Shown: positions 29,127 to 33,726, counted from the first letter of the stretch. The stretch: 33,726 nt of DNA from a virus (IMGVR_UViG_2711768017_000019); one strand, 5' to 3'. Numbers and translations: made by a program. The notes: a model not told the origin generated them from the letters alone.

Positions 29127-29522
29127 CTAACCTCGCATGTCAAAGCCAGATTTCTGAAAATCTCTGTAGACTTCCGGATTGTTGAAGGCCGGAAATTTGG
29201 CTTTATGAGCTGCGGACTTTATCGCTTCGCAATAGGCTTTATCACCGTTACTGGTAGATATTTTTAACGCCGTGCCATCCTGAGAGAATTCCATATGCAA
29301 CCTGCATTTTTTCCCTTTCCAGTTATGCGGCTCATCAAGTTTGGCATTAATTGCAGCTCTGATTCCCCGCGCTTGCGCCCCCCATTCATCCTGATCATCC
29401 CAGCGTCCTGAACTGCAACTACCTGTAGCAGTAGTTTTGTGGCAATCTGAAGGGTGTAAAGGTGTGCATCCCGCAACAAAACCGACCCAAAAAGTCAACA
29501 TAACGATTTTCTTTAATCCCAC
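29127..29522 (-). CDS. Lipoprotein with TolA domain III-like C-terminal domain (paralogue 2)
   Basis: 131-aa ORF, GTG start with GAGGAG RBS, signal peptide with lipobox VAGC. C-terminus KKCRLHMEFSQDGTALKISTSNGDKAYCEAIKSAAHKAKFPAFNNPEVYRDFQKSGFDMRG aligns with the C-terminus of E. coli TolA, including both Cys at the same 26-residue spacing. Confidence 0.55.
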   Translation of the reverse strand: MGLKKIVMLTFWVGFVAGCTPLHPSDCHKTTATGSCSSGRWDDQDEWGAQARGIRAAINAKLDEPHNWKGKKCRLHMEFSQDGTALKISTSNGDKAYCEAIKSAAHKAKFPAFNNPEVYRDFQKSGFDMRG

Positions 29523-29672: not shown

Positions 29673-30101
29673 TCAGGGTTTAAAATCCAGCACCCCATTT
29701 TGAAATACTTTATATACTTCCGGCGAAGGGGGGGCAGGTATATCAGCATTCTTTATCGCATTCATCGCTTCACGACATAAATCGAGGTCTCCACTTTCTC
29801 TTTTAACCTCCAGTAGAAGGCCATTCGGGGCCATATGCATTCTCAGTGTACACTCTTTTCCTGAATACTTACTCGCATCCCCGAACTGTTTTTCGATGGC
29901 GCTCTTGATTTGATGGGCATACAGACGGATATCCTCACTAACATCAGAAGTACGTTCAGATGAACTCACATACTGTGTCTCTATTGCTTTATCGGAGTAA
30001 TATGATGTACGGTCATGATAATTTGTCGATACAGCATCAGTGCACCCGATAATAATCCCACTAATAATCAACGTAAGAATTGATGCGCTACGAAAACCCA
30101 T
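29673..30101 (-). CDS. Lipoprotein with TolA domain III-like C-terminal domain (paralogue 1)
   Basis: 142-aa ORF, ATG with GAGGA RBS, lipobox IIGC. C-terminus QIKSAIEKQFGDASKYSGKECTLRMHMAPNGLLLEVKRESGDLDLCREAMNAIKNADIPAPPSPEVYKVFQNGVLDFKP closely parallels the remembered TolA C-terminus (...QIKSAIESKFYDASSYAGKTCTLRIKLAPDGMLLDIKPEGGDPALCQAALAAAKLAKIPKPPSQAVYEVFKNAPLDFKP). Confidence 0.65.
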   Translation of the reverse strand: MGFRSASILTLIISGIIIGCTDAVSTNYHDRTSYYSDKAIETQYVSSSERTSDVSEDIRLYAHQIKSAIEKQFGDASKYSGKECTLRMHMAPNGLLLEVKRESGDLDLCREAMNAIKNADIPAPPSPEVYKVFQNGVLDFKP

Positions 30102-30218
30102 TTTTCCTCACATATGTCATATAGTAAAGGATTATATATACCGTTGTTTTGGACGCTCAAACAGCGAATCAGATCAAATAAAACGCACATTTGTTAACAT
30201 TTACACAAAGTCTGCGTG

Positions 30219-30239
30219 GGATATTCTGAAAGAATATCC
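30219..30239. promoter_or_regulatory. Perfect 8-5-8 palindrome GGATATTC-TGAAA-GAATATCC upstream of TolA-like lipoprotein 1
   Basis: Read directly; lies about 120 bp upstream of the ATG at 30101 and about 75 bp upstream of a TATAAT-like -10 on the minus strand (around 30140-30150). Confidence 0.3.
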
Positions 30240-30689
30240 ATAATGTGGAGAGAATCTATTGAAGTGCATGGTGCCGGGTGCCTCCCGGTGAACAAAATGT
30301 TCGTGATACCTGTCGGCGACAGAAAAGGTTAATGGTATCACCCCACCGCACAGGGGGATTCACCATGCAGGAGTTTTCTTAGCAAACTCACTGCGCGCCC
30401 GGCAACTCCCAACCACATAAAATGCGGAGTTTGTGGCATTTATGCATATAACTCGCAGGAATTATCTTAAAAAACTGATGTCGATCCGGATTAAAAAGAA
30501 GCAGGTCATCATCAGATGACTGGAAAAAAGGAAAACAAAAAATACTCATCATACAGTTTTGATTGCAGGGATGAGCCTGCTATGCACAATATGCAGAATA
30601 TAAGCAAGATAAAAATATGCAGGCATATTATTTCGGATCTTGTTATTAACACAACCTTTTTAATAATCATTTGGCATACAATAAACCAG

Positions 30690-30720
30690 CCCAAAAAGAA
30701 CCGCCTAAACAGGCGGTTGG
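30690..30720 (-). terminator. Rho-independent terminator in the Q-to-moron intergenic region
   Basis: Stem aaccgcc / ggcgguu (6-nt loop) followed on the minus strand by CUUUUUGG. Confidence 0.45.
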
Positions 30721-30962
30721 TCAATACAAAGGATGCTTCGTCTTTATTATAGTAATCTGAGGCGTCGGGTGTCTTGTATCAGACAACATATTGTCCCGCT
30801 AAACAGCGAATTACAAACCACCCTGCAATGATCTCTCATCTCATTTTATATGAGTTGACGACATCAGGATAACGCATCATCAGCCCCTGCCAAGAAATAT
30901 CAAAACTCCCGCCAGCAATGTGTTATCACAATATTGTAAAAAAAACACAGCACCGAAACTAT

Positions 30963-31001
30963 AACTGGTCTCTGTTATAATTTGGAGCAGAAAGACCAGT
31001 T
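30963..31001. promoter_or_regulatory. 9-bp inverted repeat AACTGGTCT...AGACCAGTT enclosing an extended -10 (TGtTATAAT, plus strand 30973-30981)
   Basis: Read directly; perfect TATAAT with upstream TG lies in the loop of the inverted repeat, about 60 bp upstream of the bidirectional terminator at 31039-31067. Confidence 0.25.
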
Positions 31002-31038
31002 GCCCAACTAGCAGCATTCTCCCCTGCTTTCCTGACGT

Positions 31039-31067
31039 AAAAAAACCGCATTAAGCGGTTTTTTTAC
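31039..31067. terminator. Bidirectional intrinsic terminator about 80 bp downstream of Q (tR'-like)
   Basis: aaaaaaaccgc-attaa-gcggttttttt: GC stem flanked by an A-run and a T-run, so it can terminate on either strand. Confidence 0.5.
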
Positions 31068-31145
31068 GATGTCCATGTCTGCAATCCGCCTCGCGATACA
31101 GCTTTGCGAAGCATAGCAAAATTGAAGCAGTTTATACGTAAGAAA

Positions 31146-31688
31146 TCAAGCCATTTTCTCAGCAAATGATTCACGCATGGGAATATATAGGGCATACTCA
31201 GCAACAGCTAACCAATTAGCAATCCGTTTTTCGCATGTGCTAAAACACCACTCTGGGTGTGCATCATTTAGCAATTCAGCCATTTTGCGCTTAGTCATCC
31301 CCCGCCCTTCATAGCGTTGCCGGAGAATGCAAATCAATCCTGGATGCTCTGCCAGCACCTCACTTATGACTCGATCAATACATAACGCCTCTGCATCAGT
31401 ACAATGCGCCAGCCAGCTCTTTTGCTTGCCGTTGATCATCTCTCGCAAAAACGCTTCCAGCTCAGCTTTCTCTATTCCCGCTTTTTTCATTCTGCGCAGG
31501 GCTTCATTAATGGCTGTTTTCGTCAGTTTTTTGGATGCCAACAACTGATTGAACATATTCCCTGACCTGCCACCGCCAATATACGACCAGCGCCCCCACA
31601 TACGTAGTTTTCCCTGAATCCAGACACTTTCCAGCGTGGTGAGGCGAAGGTGTTCTCCGCTTTTTCCTGTATTCGTTGGGTAAATCAT
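31146..31688 (-). CDS. Late-gene antiterminator, Q-like (putative)
   Basis: 180-aa ORF directly after the nin-like genes and before the terminator/lysis region; several Cys (HCTD, LCID, WCFSTC) compatible with a Zn-binding Q protein; not lambda- or 82-type by sequence, possibly 21-type like the lysis cassette. Confidence 0.5.
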   Translation of the reverse strand: MIYPTNTGKSGEHLRLTTLESVWIQGKLRMWGRWSYIGGGRSGNMFNQLLASKKLTKTAINEALRRMKKAGIEKAELEAFLREMINGKQKSWLAHCTDAEALCIDRVISEVLAEHPGLICILRQRYEGRGMTKRKMAELLNDAHPEWCFSTCEKRIANWLAVAEYALYIPMRESFAEKMA

Positions 31689-31975
31689 AAATGACCTTTC
31701 TTTCTCCAGATTTCTTGTGTGCGAAAAACCCCTTCAGCATGCATCAGGCGCAATTCTTCTTTGGTGTAATCGCTGGTTTTTACCCGCCCGTCGATTAGAT
31801 CGTGGCATGAGCTACAGGCTATCGCCGCCTGCATATCATGTGGTTTTGTCGCTGTTCCGCACGTCCCCGCCAGCCTGTAATGCGCCAGCACAGAGGTTTC
31901 GGGATTGTGATTGCAGTAGCCAGGGATTCTGATCTGGCACATCTGGCCTTTAGCCGCTTTACGTAAATTCACCAT
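31685..31975 (-). CDS. YbcO-like nin-region protein (Cys-rich, putative nuclease)
   Basis: 96-aa ORF with C..R.PG.CN.NPETSVLAH....G.CG...KP.D...A.ACS.CHD pattern recalled from DLP12 YbcO; start overlaps Q. Confidence 0.5.
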   Translation of the reverse strand: MVNLRKAAKGQMCQIRIPGYCNHNPETSVLAHYRLAGTCGTATKPHDMQAAIACSSCHDLIDGRVKTSDYTKEELRLMHAEGVFRTQEIWRKKGHL

Positions 31976-32574
31976 TACGCAAACTCCAGTAGTTGTGCGG
32001 CCACATTTTCAACTTCCTCCTGAGAGGAGAATTTACGGAACAGAATCCAGTTCCACAGCACATTCAGTACAGATTTATAAACCTGCTGAAACTCGACTTC
32101 GTCCATATTCGCAAAAGCGATGGATTTTGCCCGACGCCCACGGCTACCGTCCGGATAAATATGCTCGGTGTAAAATCCGGCCTGAATGGTTACCCACTCG
32201 CGGAAAGCCTCAAACGACTTTAGCAACGCCGTATCCCGGGTTCTACGAGTCGCAACGGTGTTAAGGTATTGCTCTGCGGCATCACTCAGGGCTGGCGTGT
32301 GTTCCCGACCAACTGATTCGCACAGGTAATCAACGAAACCAGACAGCAGTTCTCGTTCGCGAGGCGTGATCGCCCCACCGACCGGAGTCCAGTAATCGAA
32401 TCCCAGTTGCAGGAGTTTGAAAAAACGCTTGTGGAATGCGTAGTTACGCACACGCTTAAAGTCTGCGTGTATCCACTCACCTATTTTGATTTGATGCAGA
32501 AAATCGCAACTCTCCGGCGTCGCCGGGAGAAGTAAACCAGAAGAGGTTTGTTTGACCAGTTGTATATGCGCCAT
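31975..32574 (-). CDS. YbcN-like nin-region protein (hypothetical)
   Basis: 199-aa ORF starting MAHIQLVK..., similar to the N-terminus remembered for prophage YbcN-family proteins; first gene after the AT-rich region. Confidence 0.4.
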   Translation of the reverse strand: MAHIQLVKQTSSGLLLPATPESCDFLHQIKIGEWIHADFKRVRNYAFHKRFFKLLQLGFDYWTPVGGAITPRERELLSGFVDYLCESVGREHTPALSDAAEQYLNTVATRRTRDTALLKSFEAFREWVTIQAGFYTEHIYPDGSRGRRAKSIAFANMDEVEFQQVYKSVLNVLWNWILFRKFSSQEEVENVAAQLLEFA

Positions 32575-32854
32575 TTCTCAATCTCTCGATGGCGCAGCGC
32601 AGCAGATGCCAGTTGTTCAGGCTGACGAATAAAGTATAAATAAACTGGCTATGGTGTAAAGCCCCACATAGCATGAACAAACACTACATATCAAATAGCT
32701 GGTACAAGGATAGAAATACGACACTTATTATTAAAAACGATTAGATAAATTACATTTTAATGTTATGCAAAAGTTCTTTTTTATCATAACATTTCAATAA
32801 AAGCATTACAGATGCAATCATCCCGTCATCATCAATTATTTAAGGTGGTTAAAC

Positions 32855-32941
32855 ATGGAAAATAACAAGTTCGCACATCTCGCTCCTTTTTTATCCGTAA
32901 TCCTTTTCGCTTGTTGTTTTATATGGGCATTATTTTTATAA
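32855..32941 (+). CDS. Candidate 28-aa small hydrophobic membrane protein
   Basis: ATG at 32855 preceded by strong SD AAGGTGG (6-nt spacing); encodes MENNKFAHLAPFLSVILFACCFIWALFL; below the ORF-track size cutoff. Confidence 0.3.
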   Translation: MENNKFAHLAPFLSVILFACCFIWALFL

Positions 32942-33332
32942 AGTAGCCACATGATAAGTTGCTGGAATCATATTTCCCACTCAAGTCATTAACATTTGAT
33001 AAGATATATCTAAAAGGACGCCTTTACATTATTTATGCGTATATAATTTATTTATATACACAGTAAAGGTATCCTGGGAAAATATTTATCGTTAAAAAAT
33101 ACATCATAAATAATTAAGCTGAAATTTCAGAACACAACTAATACACACAATAAGGTTCAGTAACAGTAATCTATGTGGACTACATCGAGATTTTTTGATT
33201 AAACTTTAATAACTTATTCCTAACACACAGAATGCATAAACTAAAAGTAAAACAAATAGTTATACGAAAAACAACCATATTTATTCTATCTTCTCCTCTA
33301 ATCAACATATCAATTATGTGTTTCATAACAGC

Positions 33333-33373
33333 TTGACATAACCCTCCAAAAGATGCATTTTTAATGCATGTTT
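33333..33373 (+). promoter_or_regulatory. Candidate promoter (consensus -35 TTGACA) with overlapping NsrR-type palindrome
   Basis: TTGACA at 33333-33338; AAGATGCATTTTTAATGCATGTT at 33350-33372 resembles the NsrR box (AAGATGCATTT half-sites); GGAGGAGGTGG RBS follows. Confidence 0.4.
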
Positions 33374-33726
33374 TGGAGGAGGTGGTTATGACACACAAGA
33401 GAATTCCTAAAGATTGGGTAATCAAACGCTCAACTCCGTTCTTCACAAAAGAGAACGTACCTTCAGCGTTATTAACACATCATAATACAGCAGCAGGTGT
33501 TTTTGGGCAGTTGTGCGTAATGGAAGGCACTGTAACATATTATGGTTTTACTGATGAGAATGCTACTGAACCGGAGATAAAAGTAGTCATTAATGCTGGC
33601 GCTTTTGCAACAAGCCCACCACAATACTGGCACCGTGTTGAACTAAGCGATGATGCTCAGTTTAATATTAACTTTTGGGTCGCTCCAGACTTTTCGGGCG
33701 AAAAAGTCTATAGCACCAAAAAATAG
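33364..33726 (+). CDS. YeaR-like DUF1971-family protein (probable true start ATG at 33388)
   Basis: TPFF.K...P...H.T..GV...L.VM.G.V.Y.G..DE...EP.......AG.FA..PP..WH.....D..FNI.F.VAP pattern shared with E. coli YeaR as remembered; strong RBS before the ATG at 33388; ORF ends at the window edge with a stop. Confidence 0.55.
   Translation: MHVLEEVVMTHKRIPKDWVIKRSTPFFTKENVPSALLTHHNTAAGVFGQLCVMEGTVTYYGFTDENATEPEIKVVINAGAFATSPPQYWHRVELSDDAQFNINFWVAPDFSGEKVYSTKK

What the first reader, a model, noticed from the sequence alone, without database searches (positions are those of the whole stretch)
33333..33726. YeaR-like gene with an NsrR-type operator at the edge of the prophage
Seen in sequence: consensus -35 TTGACA at 33333-33338, a palindrome AAGATGCATTTTTAATGCATGTT at 33350-33372, a strong RBS and a 112-aa ORF resembling YeaR/DUF1971. 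Established knowledge: in E. coli K-12 the yeaR-yoaG operon is NsrR-repressed and nitrate/NO-inducible, and NsrR boxes contain AAGATGCATTT-type half-sites. Inference: a nitric-oxide-responsive cargo gene associated with the prophage, or the start of flanking host DNA.
Basis: partly seen in the sequence, partly recalled or inferred. Interest (0 to 1): 0.45.

Follow-up and report, generated by a model that had tools for sequence, protein, structure and literature searches.

The report
NO-responsive stress gene carried by Rac prophage
A Rac-type E. coli prophage carries, as internal cargo, a small metal-binding stress protein of the kind Salmonella uses against nitric oxide, and the gene sits behind a near-perfect binding site for the host's nitric-oxide sensor NsrR; this is a tidy but fairly ordinary case of a phage gene wired into a host stress regulon.

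Summary

- **NsrR box:** Scored with a matrix built from 26 published E. coli NsrR sites, it reaches 27.8 bits. Only ytfE scores higher, and the next best site in the window scores 12.
- **Conservation:** The same box, with a -35 hexamer 11 nt upstream of it in the 20 loci I inspected, lies 15-27 nt (43 in one) before the start codon in 52 of 80 orthologues from other species, including every enterobacterial one.

Two parts of the interpretation need correcting.

- **Not a YeaR orthologue:** Identity to YeaR is 41%. It belongs to the subfamily found after fadR-nhaB-dsbB in Salmonella (79% identity; I take this gene to be STM1808). E. coli has this type only on prophages.
- **Not at the prophage edge or in host DNA:** In the genome identical to the window, about 14.5 kb of Rac prophage follows, from the replication genes to intR, ending at ttcA. 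The gene is cargo, on the opposite strand, between the replication and nin/Q modules. It is present in 458 of 5426 complete E. coli genomes and in isolated phages.

NsrR binding and NO induction are inferred, not shown. Verdict: new member of a known kind, modest interest.

The parts
33333..33338 (+). -35 hexamer TTGACA of the gene's own promoter
   Evidence: Sequence. Invariant in the four Rac-phage alleles aligned. A -35-like hexamer (TTTACA, TTGACC, TTGACG, TTGACA) lies 11 nt upstream of the NsrR box in 20 of the 23 orthologue upstream regions aligned; Citrobacter and Yokenella show TTGC-type hexamers about 12 nt away.
33356..33361 (+). Probable -10 hexamer CATTTT, 17-nt spacer, equal to box positions 7-12 (inferred)
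   Evidence: The fixed 11-nt distance from the -35 to the box puts the -10 at box positions 7-12. Orthologues have TATTTT, TATATT or CATATT there. It is weak (3 of 6), so the generic scan did not flag it. No transcription start data exist.
33350..33372 (.). NsrR-type operator, 11-1-11 inverted repeat AAGATGCATTT-T-TAATGCATGTT, overlapping the spacer, the -10 and the predicted transcription start
   Evidence: 27.8 bits on a matrix from 26 published CFT073 NsrR sites, second only to ytfE; next best in the window 11.95. Chance expectation 1e-6 to 5e-5 per window. A box of 20 bits or more is present in 52 of 80 orthologue loci.
33344..33379 (.). Extended palindrome: 16-nt arms with 15 complementary positions around a 4-nt centre; the right arm contains the Shine-Dalgarno GGAGG and the left arm CCTCC
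   Evidence: Sequence. As RNA it folds at -22.9 kcal/mol, z = -5.7. It would form only in transcripts that start upstream of the box. Its role is unknown.
33375..33385 (+). Ribosome-binding site GGAGGAGGTGG
   Evidence: Sequence. GGAGG ends 8 nt before the ATG.
33388..33726 (+). 112-aa DUF1971 protein of the STM1808 / PDB 3DL3 subfamily (RefSeq WP_000149055.1)
   Evidence: Pfam PF09313, E = 2.3e-26. PDB 3DL3 E = 3.5e-59; YeaR 3BB6 E = 1.6e-24. 79% identity to the Salmonella gene after dsbB. H31, H32, H82, C43, E46 and E85 are invariant in 12 orthologues. Intact in 39 of 39 phage and E. coli copies, with pN/pS of about 0.13-0.2 in the four most divergent alleles.
32575..33332 (.). AT-rich spacer (GC 31% over 32575-33387) between the nin gene DUF1367 and the cassette; part of the low-GC cargo island; contains a conserved 28-aa ORF at 32857-32943 (+)
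   Evidence: GC values. Shared among Rac-type phages at about 90% identity. The small ORF is conserved.

Best explanation
This is a self-contained cargo cassette ('moron') inside a Rac-family lambdoid prophage of E. coli that is integrated at ttcA. It consists of a sigma-70 promoter (TTGACA, 17 nt, CATTTT), an NsrR operator that covers the spacer, the -10 and the predicted start site, a strong RBS, and a 112-aa DUF1971 protein of the STM1808 type.

Proposed mechanism:
1. In the lysogen, host NsrR (an [Fe-S] repressor) sits on the box and occludes the promoter.
2. Nitric oxide, from host immunity or made endogenously during nitrate/nitrite respiration, inactivates NsrR and the gene is transcribed. 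This is independent of the phage lytic programme, because the gene lies antisense to the early-right operon.
3. By analogy with its 79%-identical Salmonella homologue, the protein is a small metal-binding protein that helps growth under nitrosative stress.

The box and ORF, and probably the promoter, appear to have been captured from an enterobacterial chromosome; Kluyvera and Leclercia are the closest lineages found.

Shown here: sequence anatomy, family membership, prophage-internal location, distribution, and conservation of the operator and promoter geometry across orthologues. Inferred: NsrR binding, NO induction, the exact -10 and transcription start, the protein's biochemical role, and the direction and source of the capture.
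For: Box strength:
- 27.8 bits, second only to ytfE among published sites, with chance expectation at most 5e-5 per window.

Phylogenetic footprint:
- 52 of 80 orthologue loci carry a box of 20 bits or more, 15-27 nt (43 in one) upstream of the start. These include every Kluyvera, Leclercia, Citrobacter, Klebsiella, Raoultella and Salmonella locus except one Leclercia whose best match, in a shifted register, scores 12.2.
- Only 5 such sites occur in 235,503 background positions of the same loci.
- The -35 is 11 nt upstream of the box in 20 of the 23 upstream regions aligned.

Capture of the cassette:
- DNA homology to the chromosomal orthologues (about 73%) runs from 4 nt before the box to the stop codon and no further.

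Protein:
- Pfam DUF1971; 79% identity to the Salmonella gene after fadR-nhaB-dsbB.
- PMC7527575 lists STM1808 in the NsrR regulon with a role in virulence, citing Karlinsey 2012.
- H32 and H82 are invariant.

Location and cargo status:
- Internal to Rac prophages and present in isolated virions of vB_EcoS-666R9-type phages.
- The island is low in GC, 27-44% against about 50% in the flanking phage genes.
- Alternative cargo occupies the same slot in other phages.

Maintenance:
- 458 of 5426 genomes carry it at 94.7-100% identity.
- 39 of 39 ORFs are intact and evolving under constraint.

Regulator:
- NsrR is an NO-sensitive [Fe-S] repressor (PMC5320621).
Against: - There are no binding, expression or transcription start data for this promoter.
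- The -10 at the canonical spacing is weak (CATTTT), and the generic scan did not call the promoter.
- The cassette lies in a 27-31% GC tract that H-NS might silence; this is inference, not a result.
- The operator is the most polymorphic part of the cassette among phage copies, and the commonest allele scores only 20.7 bits.
- Most Vibrionaceae orthologues have no box detectable with the E. coli matrix, so the link between gene and operator is specific to one clade.
- The CFT073 paper itself notes that some sites bound by NsrR are not regulated by it.
- The biochemical function of DUF1971 proteins is unknown. The zinc and H32/H82 data for STM1808 are recalled from Karlinsey et al. 2012, which I could not open.
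Confidence: 0.8

Rival explanations
1. The gene marks the start of flanking host chromosome: it is the host's own yeaR-type locus lying next to the prophage.
For: The window ends exactly at the stop codon, so nothing phage-like is visible beyond it. The family is otherwise chromosomal in other genera.
Against: - In NCTC10444 (100% identical over 24.7 kb) and in LD39-1, EBJ003 and phage vB_EcoS-666R9, phage replication, immunity and recombination genes follow the gene. The host gene ttcA comes about 14.5 kb later.
- K-12 yeaR is a different locus and only 41% identical.
- The gene is in only 8.4% of E. coli genomes.
Confidence: 0.01
2. The cassette is a regulatory fossil. The NsrR box was carried over from the donor chromosome, but in the phage the gene is silent or expressed constitutively, so NsrR control no longer operates.
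For: - Weak -10.
- Very AT-rich surroundings.
- The operator region is a substitution hot spot: 5 of the 9 differences between two alleles fall in a 37-nt interval, Fisher p = 6e-5.
- The commonest allele has a degraded left half-site and a new central TATAAT.
Against: - Every allele seen still scores 17.7-28.6 bits, within or above the range of the ChIP-positive sites (12.0-31.3, hmp 20.3).
- TTGACA and the RBS core are invariant.
- All 39 ORFs are intact, with pN/pS of about 0.13-0.2 in the four most divergent alleles.
- The window's own allele is the second strongest of those seen.
Confidence: 0.12
3. The palindrome works mainly as a nucleic-acid hairpin, or as the site of a different protein, rather than as an NsrR operator. 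For example, it could mask the RBS in read-through transcripts, or act as a pause or processing site on the antisense early-right transcript.
For: - The arms extend to 16 nt and include the SD and an anti-SD; the RNA folds at -22.9 kcal/mol, z = -5.7.
- One allele preserves the outer pairing through a double change, CCTCCAA/TTGGAGG to CCTCAAA/TTTGAGG.
- Salmonella and Citrobacter boxes are also embedded in longer palindromes.
Against: - The conserved part across genera is the 23-bp NsrR consensus, not the flanks, which differ or do not pair in Kluyvera, Klebsiella and phage alleles C and D.
- No T-run follows on either strand, and no terminator was called.
- The predicted transcription start lies inside the palindrome, so the gene's own mRNA lacks the left arm.
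- A hairpin role could coexist with NsrR binding.
Confidence: 0.07

Closest known systems
Salmonella enterica STM1808, a DUF1971 member of the NsrR regulon (Karlinsey et al. 2012, Mol Microbiol 85:1179; cited in PMC7527575 and PMC7082413)
   Same: - 79% identical over the full length with no gaps.
- The histidines at positions 32 and 82 are conserved. Their importance for zinc binding and NO resistance is from my memory of the paper.
- An 11-1-11 NsrR-type box lies just upstream of the RBS.
   Different: - STM1808 is a fixed chromosomal gene right after dsbB and its terminator. Assigning the tag STM1808 to that position rests on my memory of the LT2 gene order.
- The copy here rides on a temperate phage and is present in only 8.4% of E. 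coli genomes.
- The box is 15 nt from the ATG here, 27 nt in the Salmonella locus scored and 25-27 nt read from the serovar sequence.
- ORF GC is 41% here against 52%.
E. coli K-12 YeaR (b1797; PDB 3BB6) of the NsrR- and NarL-controlled yeaR-yoaG operon
   Same: Same Pfam domain. YeaR is also preceded by an NsrR box, AAATGGTATTTAAAATGCAAATT.
   Different: - Only 41% identical, with a 3-residue insertion.
- No yoaG partner here.
- The yeaR box is about 60 nt from the start.
- yeaR is annotated in K-12 and CFT073 and I take it to be core.
- NarL dependence was not examined here.
PDB 3DL3, 'tellurite resistance protein B' (119-aa stand-alone DUF1971); from memory a Vibrio fischeri structural-genomics target. 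Also the N-terminal domain of TehB (PDB 3M70).
   Same: 3DL3 aligns over residues 1-111 at E = 3.5e-59; Aliivibrio orthologues are 77-80% identical. It therefore gives a direct structural template.
   Different: - The Aliivibrio and Vibrio loci carry no box detectable with the E. coli NsrR matrix.
- TehB has an added SAM-methyltransferase domain that is absent here. The NCBIfam TehB model scores 49 bits against a cut-off of 303.
Prophage 'morons': autonomously expressed cargo genes of lambdoid prophages (general concept, from established knowledge)
   Same: Own promoter, opposite strand to the phage operon, deviant GC, located in a slot that holds different cargo in related phages, and expressed from the repressed prophage.
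   Different: - The control element is an operator for a host nitrosative-stress repressor.
- No intrinsic terminator was found on the gene's strand just downstream in the reference genome.

Membership tests
Pfam PF09313 (DUF1971 / TehB-like N-terminal domain) | Profile match above the gathering score covering the whole domain | tested here: met
   92 bits against a cut-off of 23.1; E = 2.3e-26; profile 1-80 of 80; residues 14-94.
STM1808-type DUF1971 subfamily | High full-length identity to the Salmonella gene located after fadR-nhaB-dsbB, clearly above the identity to YeaR or TehB | tested here: met
   79% identical with no gaps; locus context. Against this: 41% to YeaR and E = 5e-11 to the TehB homologue 3M70.
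   H31, H32 and H82 are invariant in the 12-sequence alignment, and numbering is identical up to residue 100. Metal binding itself was not tested.
STM1808-type DUF1971 subfamily | Contribution to growth under nitrosative stress | not testable with these tools
   Needs a deletion and complementation experiment in a lysogen.
YeaR orthologue (yeaR-yoaG operon) | Orthologous sequence and a downstream yoaG (DUF1869) partner | tested here: not met
   41% identity. No yoaG-like ORF in the 620 nt downstream in NCTC10444. K-12 has its own yeaR locus elsewhere.
TehB (SAM-dependent tellurite methyltransferase) | C-terminal methyltransferase domain; NCBIfam equivalog score | tested here: not met
   49.1 bits against a cut-off of 303; only model positions 11-106 of 289 match.
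E. coli NsrR regulon (operator) | 11-1-11 inverted repeat matching the NsrR matrix at or above the level of validated sites | tested here: met
   27.8 bits; rank 2 among 26 published sites (range 12.0-31.3). Tail probability 4e-11 to 1.4e-9 per position.
E. coli NsrR regulon (operator) | Position compatible with repression (overlap of core promoter elements) | tested here: inconclusive
   The box starts 11 nt after a consensus -35 and so covers the only plausible -10, a geometry conserved in orthologues. No transcription start data exist and the -10 is weak.
E. coli NsrR regulon (operator) | Conservation of the site upstream of orthologous genes | tested here: met
   52 of 80 loci have a box of 20 bits or more, against 5 per 235,503 background positions.
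E. coli NsrR regulon (operator) | NsrR binding in vitro or in vivo, and derepression by NO or in an nsrR mutant | not testable with these tools
   No data. CFT073 and K-12, the strains used for ChIP, lack the gene: its box is absent from the paper's 27 predicted 11-1-11 sites, and the K-12 Rac deletion is from memory.
Prophage moron / accessory cargo | Located inside a prophage, with its own promoter and orientation, deviant composition, and variable presence among related phages | tested here: met
   Internal to Rac prophages and isolated phages. GC 27-44%. 394 further genomes match part of the 1152-bp query (AT-rich tract plus gene) but lack the gene. Other cargo sits in the same slot.

The most novel reading that the evidence does not exclude
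Rac-family temperate phages spread an NO-defence gene that E. coli otherwise lacks, already wired to the host NsrR sensor, so lysogens gain fitness in inflamed or nitrate-respiring gut niches.

The cassette also faces the early-right operon head-on, between the replication genes and Q. NO-triggered transcription from it, or NsrR bound as a roadblock, could therefore modulate Q expression and so couple prophage induction to nitrosative stress.

The extended SD/anti-SD palindrome would ensure that only the NsrR-controlled transcript is translated.
Probability: 0.12. Interest if true: 0.55.

Novelty: new member of a known kind. Interest (0 to 1): 0.3.

Why it matters
- It adds a mobile, strain-variable member to the E. 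coli NsrR regulon, present in 8.4% of complete genomes. The K-12 and CFT073 studies that defined the regulon could not see it.
- It shows a temperate phage carrying a promoter-operator-gene unit from an enterobacterial chromosome into a species that lacks that gene type.
- If the protein protects against NO as its Salmonella homologue is reported to do, Rac-type lysogeny would be a small fitness factor in inflamed or nitrate-rich gut and urinary niches.
- The set of natural operator alleles (17.7-28.6 bits) is a ready-made series for testing how NsrR site strength sets induction thresholds.

Otherwise this is a correct annotation of an ordinary cargo gene.

Tried and rejected
- **Generic sigma-70 scan of 32575-33726:** it did not call the promoter, because the -10 is weak. 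I rely on the conserved geometry instead.
- **TTTAAT (33360-33365) as the -10:** rejected for this allele, because the spacer from TTGACA would be 21 nt and no other -35 fits. It stays open for the alleles that have TATAAT there.
- **Rfam scan of 30000-33726:** nothing in or near the cassette. The only hit above the gathering score is STnc100 at 30212-30398.
- **Literature searches:** NsrR+DUF1971, NsrR+'Rac prophage' and DUF1971 alone found no description of a prophage-borne copy. Karlinsey 2012 could not be opened by DOI or by PMC id.
- **NCBIfam search of the upstream 28-aa ORF:** no family.
- **Fur box in the phage copy:** absent. The best match is 11 of 19 in the 200 nt upstream, against 14-17 of 19 in the Kluyvera-group orthologues.
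- **Terminator after the gene in NCTC10444:** none on the + strand.
- **yoaG downstream:** none.
- **IscR or another Rrf2 regulator as the binding protein:** considered and set aside by eye only; no matrix was run.
- **Structure prediction:** not run, because a solved structure aligns at E = 3.5e-59.

Full report
**1. What is in the sequence**

The stretch 33300-33726 reads ...agc TTGACA taaccctccaa AAGATGCATTT T TAATGCATGTT ttggaggaggtggtt ATG....
- TTGACA at 33333-33338.
- The 23-bp repeat at 33350-33372.
- GGAGGAGGTGG at 33375-33385.
- ATG at 33388, with the stop ending at 33726.

The mechanical ORF list reports 120 aa from an ATG at 33364, inside the palindrome. The 112-aa start is the right one. 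It has the correctly spaced RBS, RefSeq annotates it (WP_000149055.1), and it aligns with the MSH/MTH start of every orthologue.

The protein matches Pfam DUF1971 over the whole profile (E = 2.3e-26). It is not TehB: the NCBIfam TehB equivalog scores 49 bits against a cut-off of 303 and covers only the N-terminal part of the model.

**2. Is the palindrome an NsrR box?**

Mehta et al. 2015 (PMC5320621) list 27 NsrR sites of the 11-1-11 type in E. coli CFT073, most of them with ChIP-seq peaks. I built a symmetrised log-odds matrix from the 26 distinct sequences.
- The window's site scores 27.8 bits. ytfE scores 31.3, hcp 25.8, tehA 25.3, yeaR 23.9 and hmp 20.3; the weakest listed site scores 12.0.
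- The next best position anywhere in the 33.7-kb window scores 11.95.
- The exact tail probability of 27.8 bits or more is 4e-11 per position on a uniform background and 1.4e-9 at 30% GC. That gives 1e-6 to 5e-5 expected per window.
- The left half, AAGATGCATTT, is identical to the ytfE left half.

This matrix is my own reconstruction from the published site list, not the authors' PatSer matrix.

**3. Where the gene sits**

The 1152 bases 32575-33726 are 100% identical in several E. coli chromosomes. The last 24.7 kb of the window are 100% identical to strain NCTC10444. In that genome the order after the DUF1971 gene is:
- two hypothetical genes;
- DUF977, DUF1627, ydaV, ydaU, ydaT;
- a cro-like and a cI-like regulator;
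- ydaF, sieB, kilR, ydaE, racC, recE, recT, ralR, xisR, intR;
- and only then the host gene ttcA.

The window therefore ends about 14.5 kb short of the prophage end. The element is a Rac-family prophage, and the window also holds its trkG, lysis, Q and nin genes and a full structural module.

The DUF1971 gene is on the opposite strand to the early-right operon. It lies between the replication genes and the nin/Q genes DUF1367, DUF1364 and DUF1133 (31146-32574, minus strand). The same placement is seen in LD39-1, in EBJ003 and in the isolated phage vB_EcoS-666R9.

The surrounding 4 kb is a low-GC island, 27-44% against about 50% in the adjoining phage genes. GC is 31% over 32575-33387 and 41% for the ORF.

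What follows the gene differs between phages: two or three hypothetical genes, or hok/gef plus a KilA-N gene. Phage vB_EcoS-683R6 has the same nin module but carries an S8 peptidase, an FtsH-like ATPase and a kinase in place of the DUF1971 gene. This is a cargo slot, and the cassette is a moron. 'Edge of the prophage' and 'start of flanking host DNA' are artefacts of the window boundary.

**4. Which DUF1971 protein**

- Identity to K-12 YeaR is 41%.
- Identity to a 113-aa Salmonella protein is 79%, with no gaps.
- That Salmonella gene lies directly after fadR-nhaB-dsbB. From memory of the LT2 map, this is the position of STM1808.
- STM1808 is described as an NsrR-regulon gene with a role in virulence (PMC7527575 and PMC7082413, both citing Karlinsey et al. 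2012).
- My recollection of that paper is that STM1808 is a zinc protein whose H32 and H82 are needed for NO resistance. I could not open the paper.
- Both histidines are invariant in a 12-genus alignment, together with H31, C43, E46 and E85.
- The best solved structure is 3DL3 (E = 3.5e-59), ahead of YeaR 3BB6 (E = 1.6e-24).

Close homologues at 73-82% identity are chromosomal in Kluyvera, Leclercia, Pantoea, Citrobacter, Klebsiella, Raoultella, Salmonella, Vibrio, Aliivibrio, Photobacterium and Shewanella.

In E. coli, a sensitive blastn search finds the gene in 458 of 5426 complete genomes. Every hit is at 94.7-100% identity, and there is no more distant class of hits. The only Escherichia/Shigella entry in the one-genome-per-species collection is a copy that shares the phage-linked AT-rich upstream tract at 98%. 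E. coli therefore appears to have this subfamily only through prophages.

**5. Comparative test of the operator**

I scanned the 250 nt upstream of the gene in 80 orthologue loci with the same matrix.
- 52 loci have a box of 20 bits or more, and all but one of the enterobacterial loci are among them. The exception is one Leclercia locus, where the best match is in a shifted register and scores 12.2.
- The box ends 15-27 nt before the start codon (43 nt in one Photobacterium).
- The remaining 235,503 positions of the same loci contain only five such sites.
- Most Vibrionaceae loci have none.

Aligning on the box shows a -35-like hexamer (TTTACA, TTGACC, TTGACG, TTGACA) ending exactly 11 nt before the box in 20 of the 23 upstream regions aligned. 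In Citrobacter and Yokenella it is a TTGC-type hexamer about 12 nt away. With a 17-nt spacer the -10 is then box positions 7-12: TATTTT, TATATT or CATATT in the orthologues, and CATTTT here. This explains why the generic scan missed the promoter. It also places the NsrR box over the spacer, the -10 and the predicted start near 33366-33370, the geometry expected for repression by occlusion.

DNA homology between the phage cassette and the Kluyvera/Leclercia-type loci is about 73%. It begins 4 nt before the box and ends at the stop codon. The unit that moved was therefore box plus gene, probably with the -35 as well. Phage copies with different downstream cargo also diverge right at the stop codon.

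**6. Is the gene maintained?**

- All 39 phage and E. coli copies examined have intact ORFs.
- Differences from the window allele are mostly synonymous (for example 8 synonymous against 4 non-synonymous), giving pN/pS of about 0.13-0.2 in the four most divergent alleles.
- IMG/VR holds 35 near-identical copies on viral contigs, all with TTGACA and a box.
- One genome has lost the gene through an IS1-associated deletion that starts just after the operator.

**7. Mechanism proposed**

Shown: the anatomy, the family, the location, and the conservation of the regulatory geometry.

Inferred:
- In a lysogen, holo-NsrR occupies the box and blocks RNA polymerase. NsrR is 'an [Fe-S] protein that is an NO-sensitive repressor' (PMC5320621).
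- NO relieves the repression, and the short-leader mRNA is translated from the strong RBS.
- The protein then acts as its Salmonella homologue does, in an unknown metal-dependent way.
- Because the gene is antisense to the early-right operon and has its own promoter, expression does not require prophage induction.

**8. Caveats and rivals**

There is no experimental evidence for this promoter, and the -10 is weak. The tract is AT-rich enough for H-NS silencing, which is an inference.

The operator is the most variable part of the cassette. Between the window allele and the commonest IMG/VR allele there are 9 differences in 627 nt, and 5 of them fall within a 37-nt interval around the box (Fisher p = 6e-5). 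Across four alleles, 12 of 53 polymorphic columns lie there (p = 1.4e-5). The alleles score 17.7-28.6 bits, so the box is retained but possibly tuned. Several alleles have TATAAT at the box centre.

The palindrome also extends to 16-nt arms that pair the SD with CCTCC (-22.9 kcal/mol as RNA, z = -5.7). This could matter only for transcripts that start upstream. Alternatively, it could simply reflect template-switch mutation in a quasi-palindrome, which is my speculation.

I rate the rivals as follows: the fossil-operator reading 0.12, a hairpin or other protein as the main function 0.07, and host-flank DNA as refuted.

**9. Novelty**

NsrR-controlled DUF1971 genes are known: yeaR in E. coli and STM1808 in Salmonella. 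Morons controlled by host regulators are a known kind. I found no description of a prophage-borne STM1808-type gene or of an NsrR site in Rac. The strains used to define the E. coli NsrR regulon lack it; its box is not among the 27 predicted CFT073 sites. This is a new member of a known kind. It is useful for annotating strain-variable regulons and mildly interesting for phage-host biology.

Noticed in passing
window 32857-32943 (+): A 28-aa strongly hydrophobic ORF (MENNKFAHLAPFLSVILFACCFIWALFL) with an AAGGTGG RBS, in the AT-rich tract next to the DUF1367 nin gene. It is intact and the same length in divergent phages, including vB_EcoS-683R6 (68% aa identity), which lacks the DUF1971 gene. 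It has no NCBIfam family. It could be a small membrane protein or a type I toxin.
   Followed up: partly
window 33343-33379, compared with L087, L109 and L113 (about 2955-2992 in each): The operator and RBS flank form a substitution hot spot among otherwise near-identical Rac-phage cassettes: 5 of the 9 differences between two alleles, and 12 of the 53 polymorphic columns across four alleles, fall in a 37-nt interval. Alleles score 17.7-28.6 bits. The commonest, AACACGCATTTATAATGCATGTT, has a consensus TATAAT at its centre. One allele keeps the outer SD/anti-SD pairing through a double change.
   Followed up: partly
L007-L028 (Kluyvera, Leclercia, Pantoea, Enterobacter, Buttiauxella, Pseudescherichia), 64-66 nt upstream of the start codon; also Photobacterium L059 and L079: Fur-box-like 19-mers (14-17 of 19 matches to GATAATGATAATCATTATC) sit immediately upstream of the -35 in the closest chromosomal orthologues. 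This suggests dual Fur and NsrR control there. The phage copy has none: its best match is 11 of 19 in the 200 nt upstream. Only 3 of 1600 shuffles reach 15 of 19.
   Followed up: partly
window 30212-30398 (-): Rfam match to the sRNA STnc100 (86.6 bits against a gathering score of 47, E = 2e-18), between the TolA-like genes and the Q gene.
   Followed up: no
window 29127-29522 and 29673-30101 (-): Two prophage ORFs annotated in RefSeq as TolA C-terminal-domain proteins, lying between the lysis genes and Q. They may be envelope- or exclusion-related cargo.
   Followed up: no
window 32633-32660 (-): A good promoter-like site, TTTACA-16-TATACT (10 of 12), pointing into the DUF1367/DUF1364/Q genes. 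If active, it would give the nin/Q block a promoter independent of the early-right promoter.
   Followed up: no
L002 5875-7854; L001 13768-16770; L004 9513-11558; L125 3914-7360 (all beyond the window end): The slot between the DUF1971 gene (or DUF1367) and DUF977 holds different cargo in different Rac-type phages: two or three large hypothetical proteins, hok/gef plus a KilA-N gene, or an S8 peptidase with an FtsH-like ATPase and a kinase. It looks like an accessory or defence hot spot.
   Followed up: no
L124 4001-4830 (E. coli B-JRPT-4119): An IS1A element sits directly after the promoter and operator. The DUF1971 gene and the whole prophage arm up to intR are deleted.
   Followed up: no
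L003 3945-3985 (Salmonella); L029 and other Citrobacter loci: The NsrR boxes of the chromosomal orthologues are also embedded in longer perfect palindromes, with arms of 17-19 nt and flank sequences that differ between genera. It is unexplained whether this reflects an extended protein contact, hairpin formation or a mutational bias.
   Followed up: no
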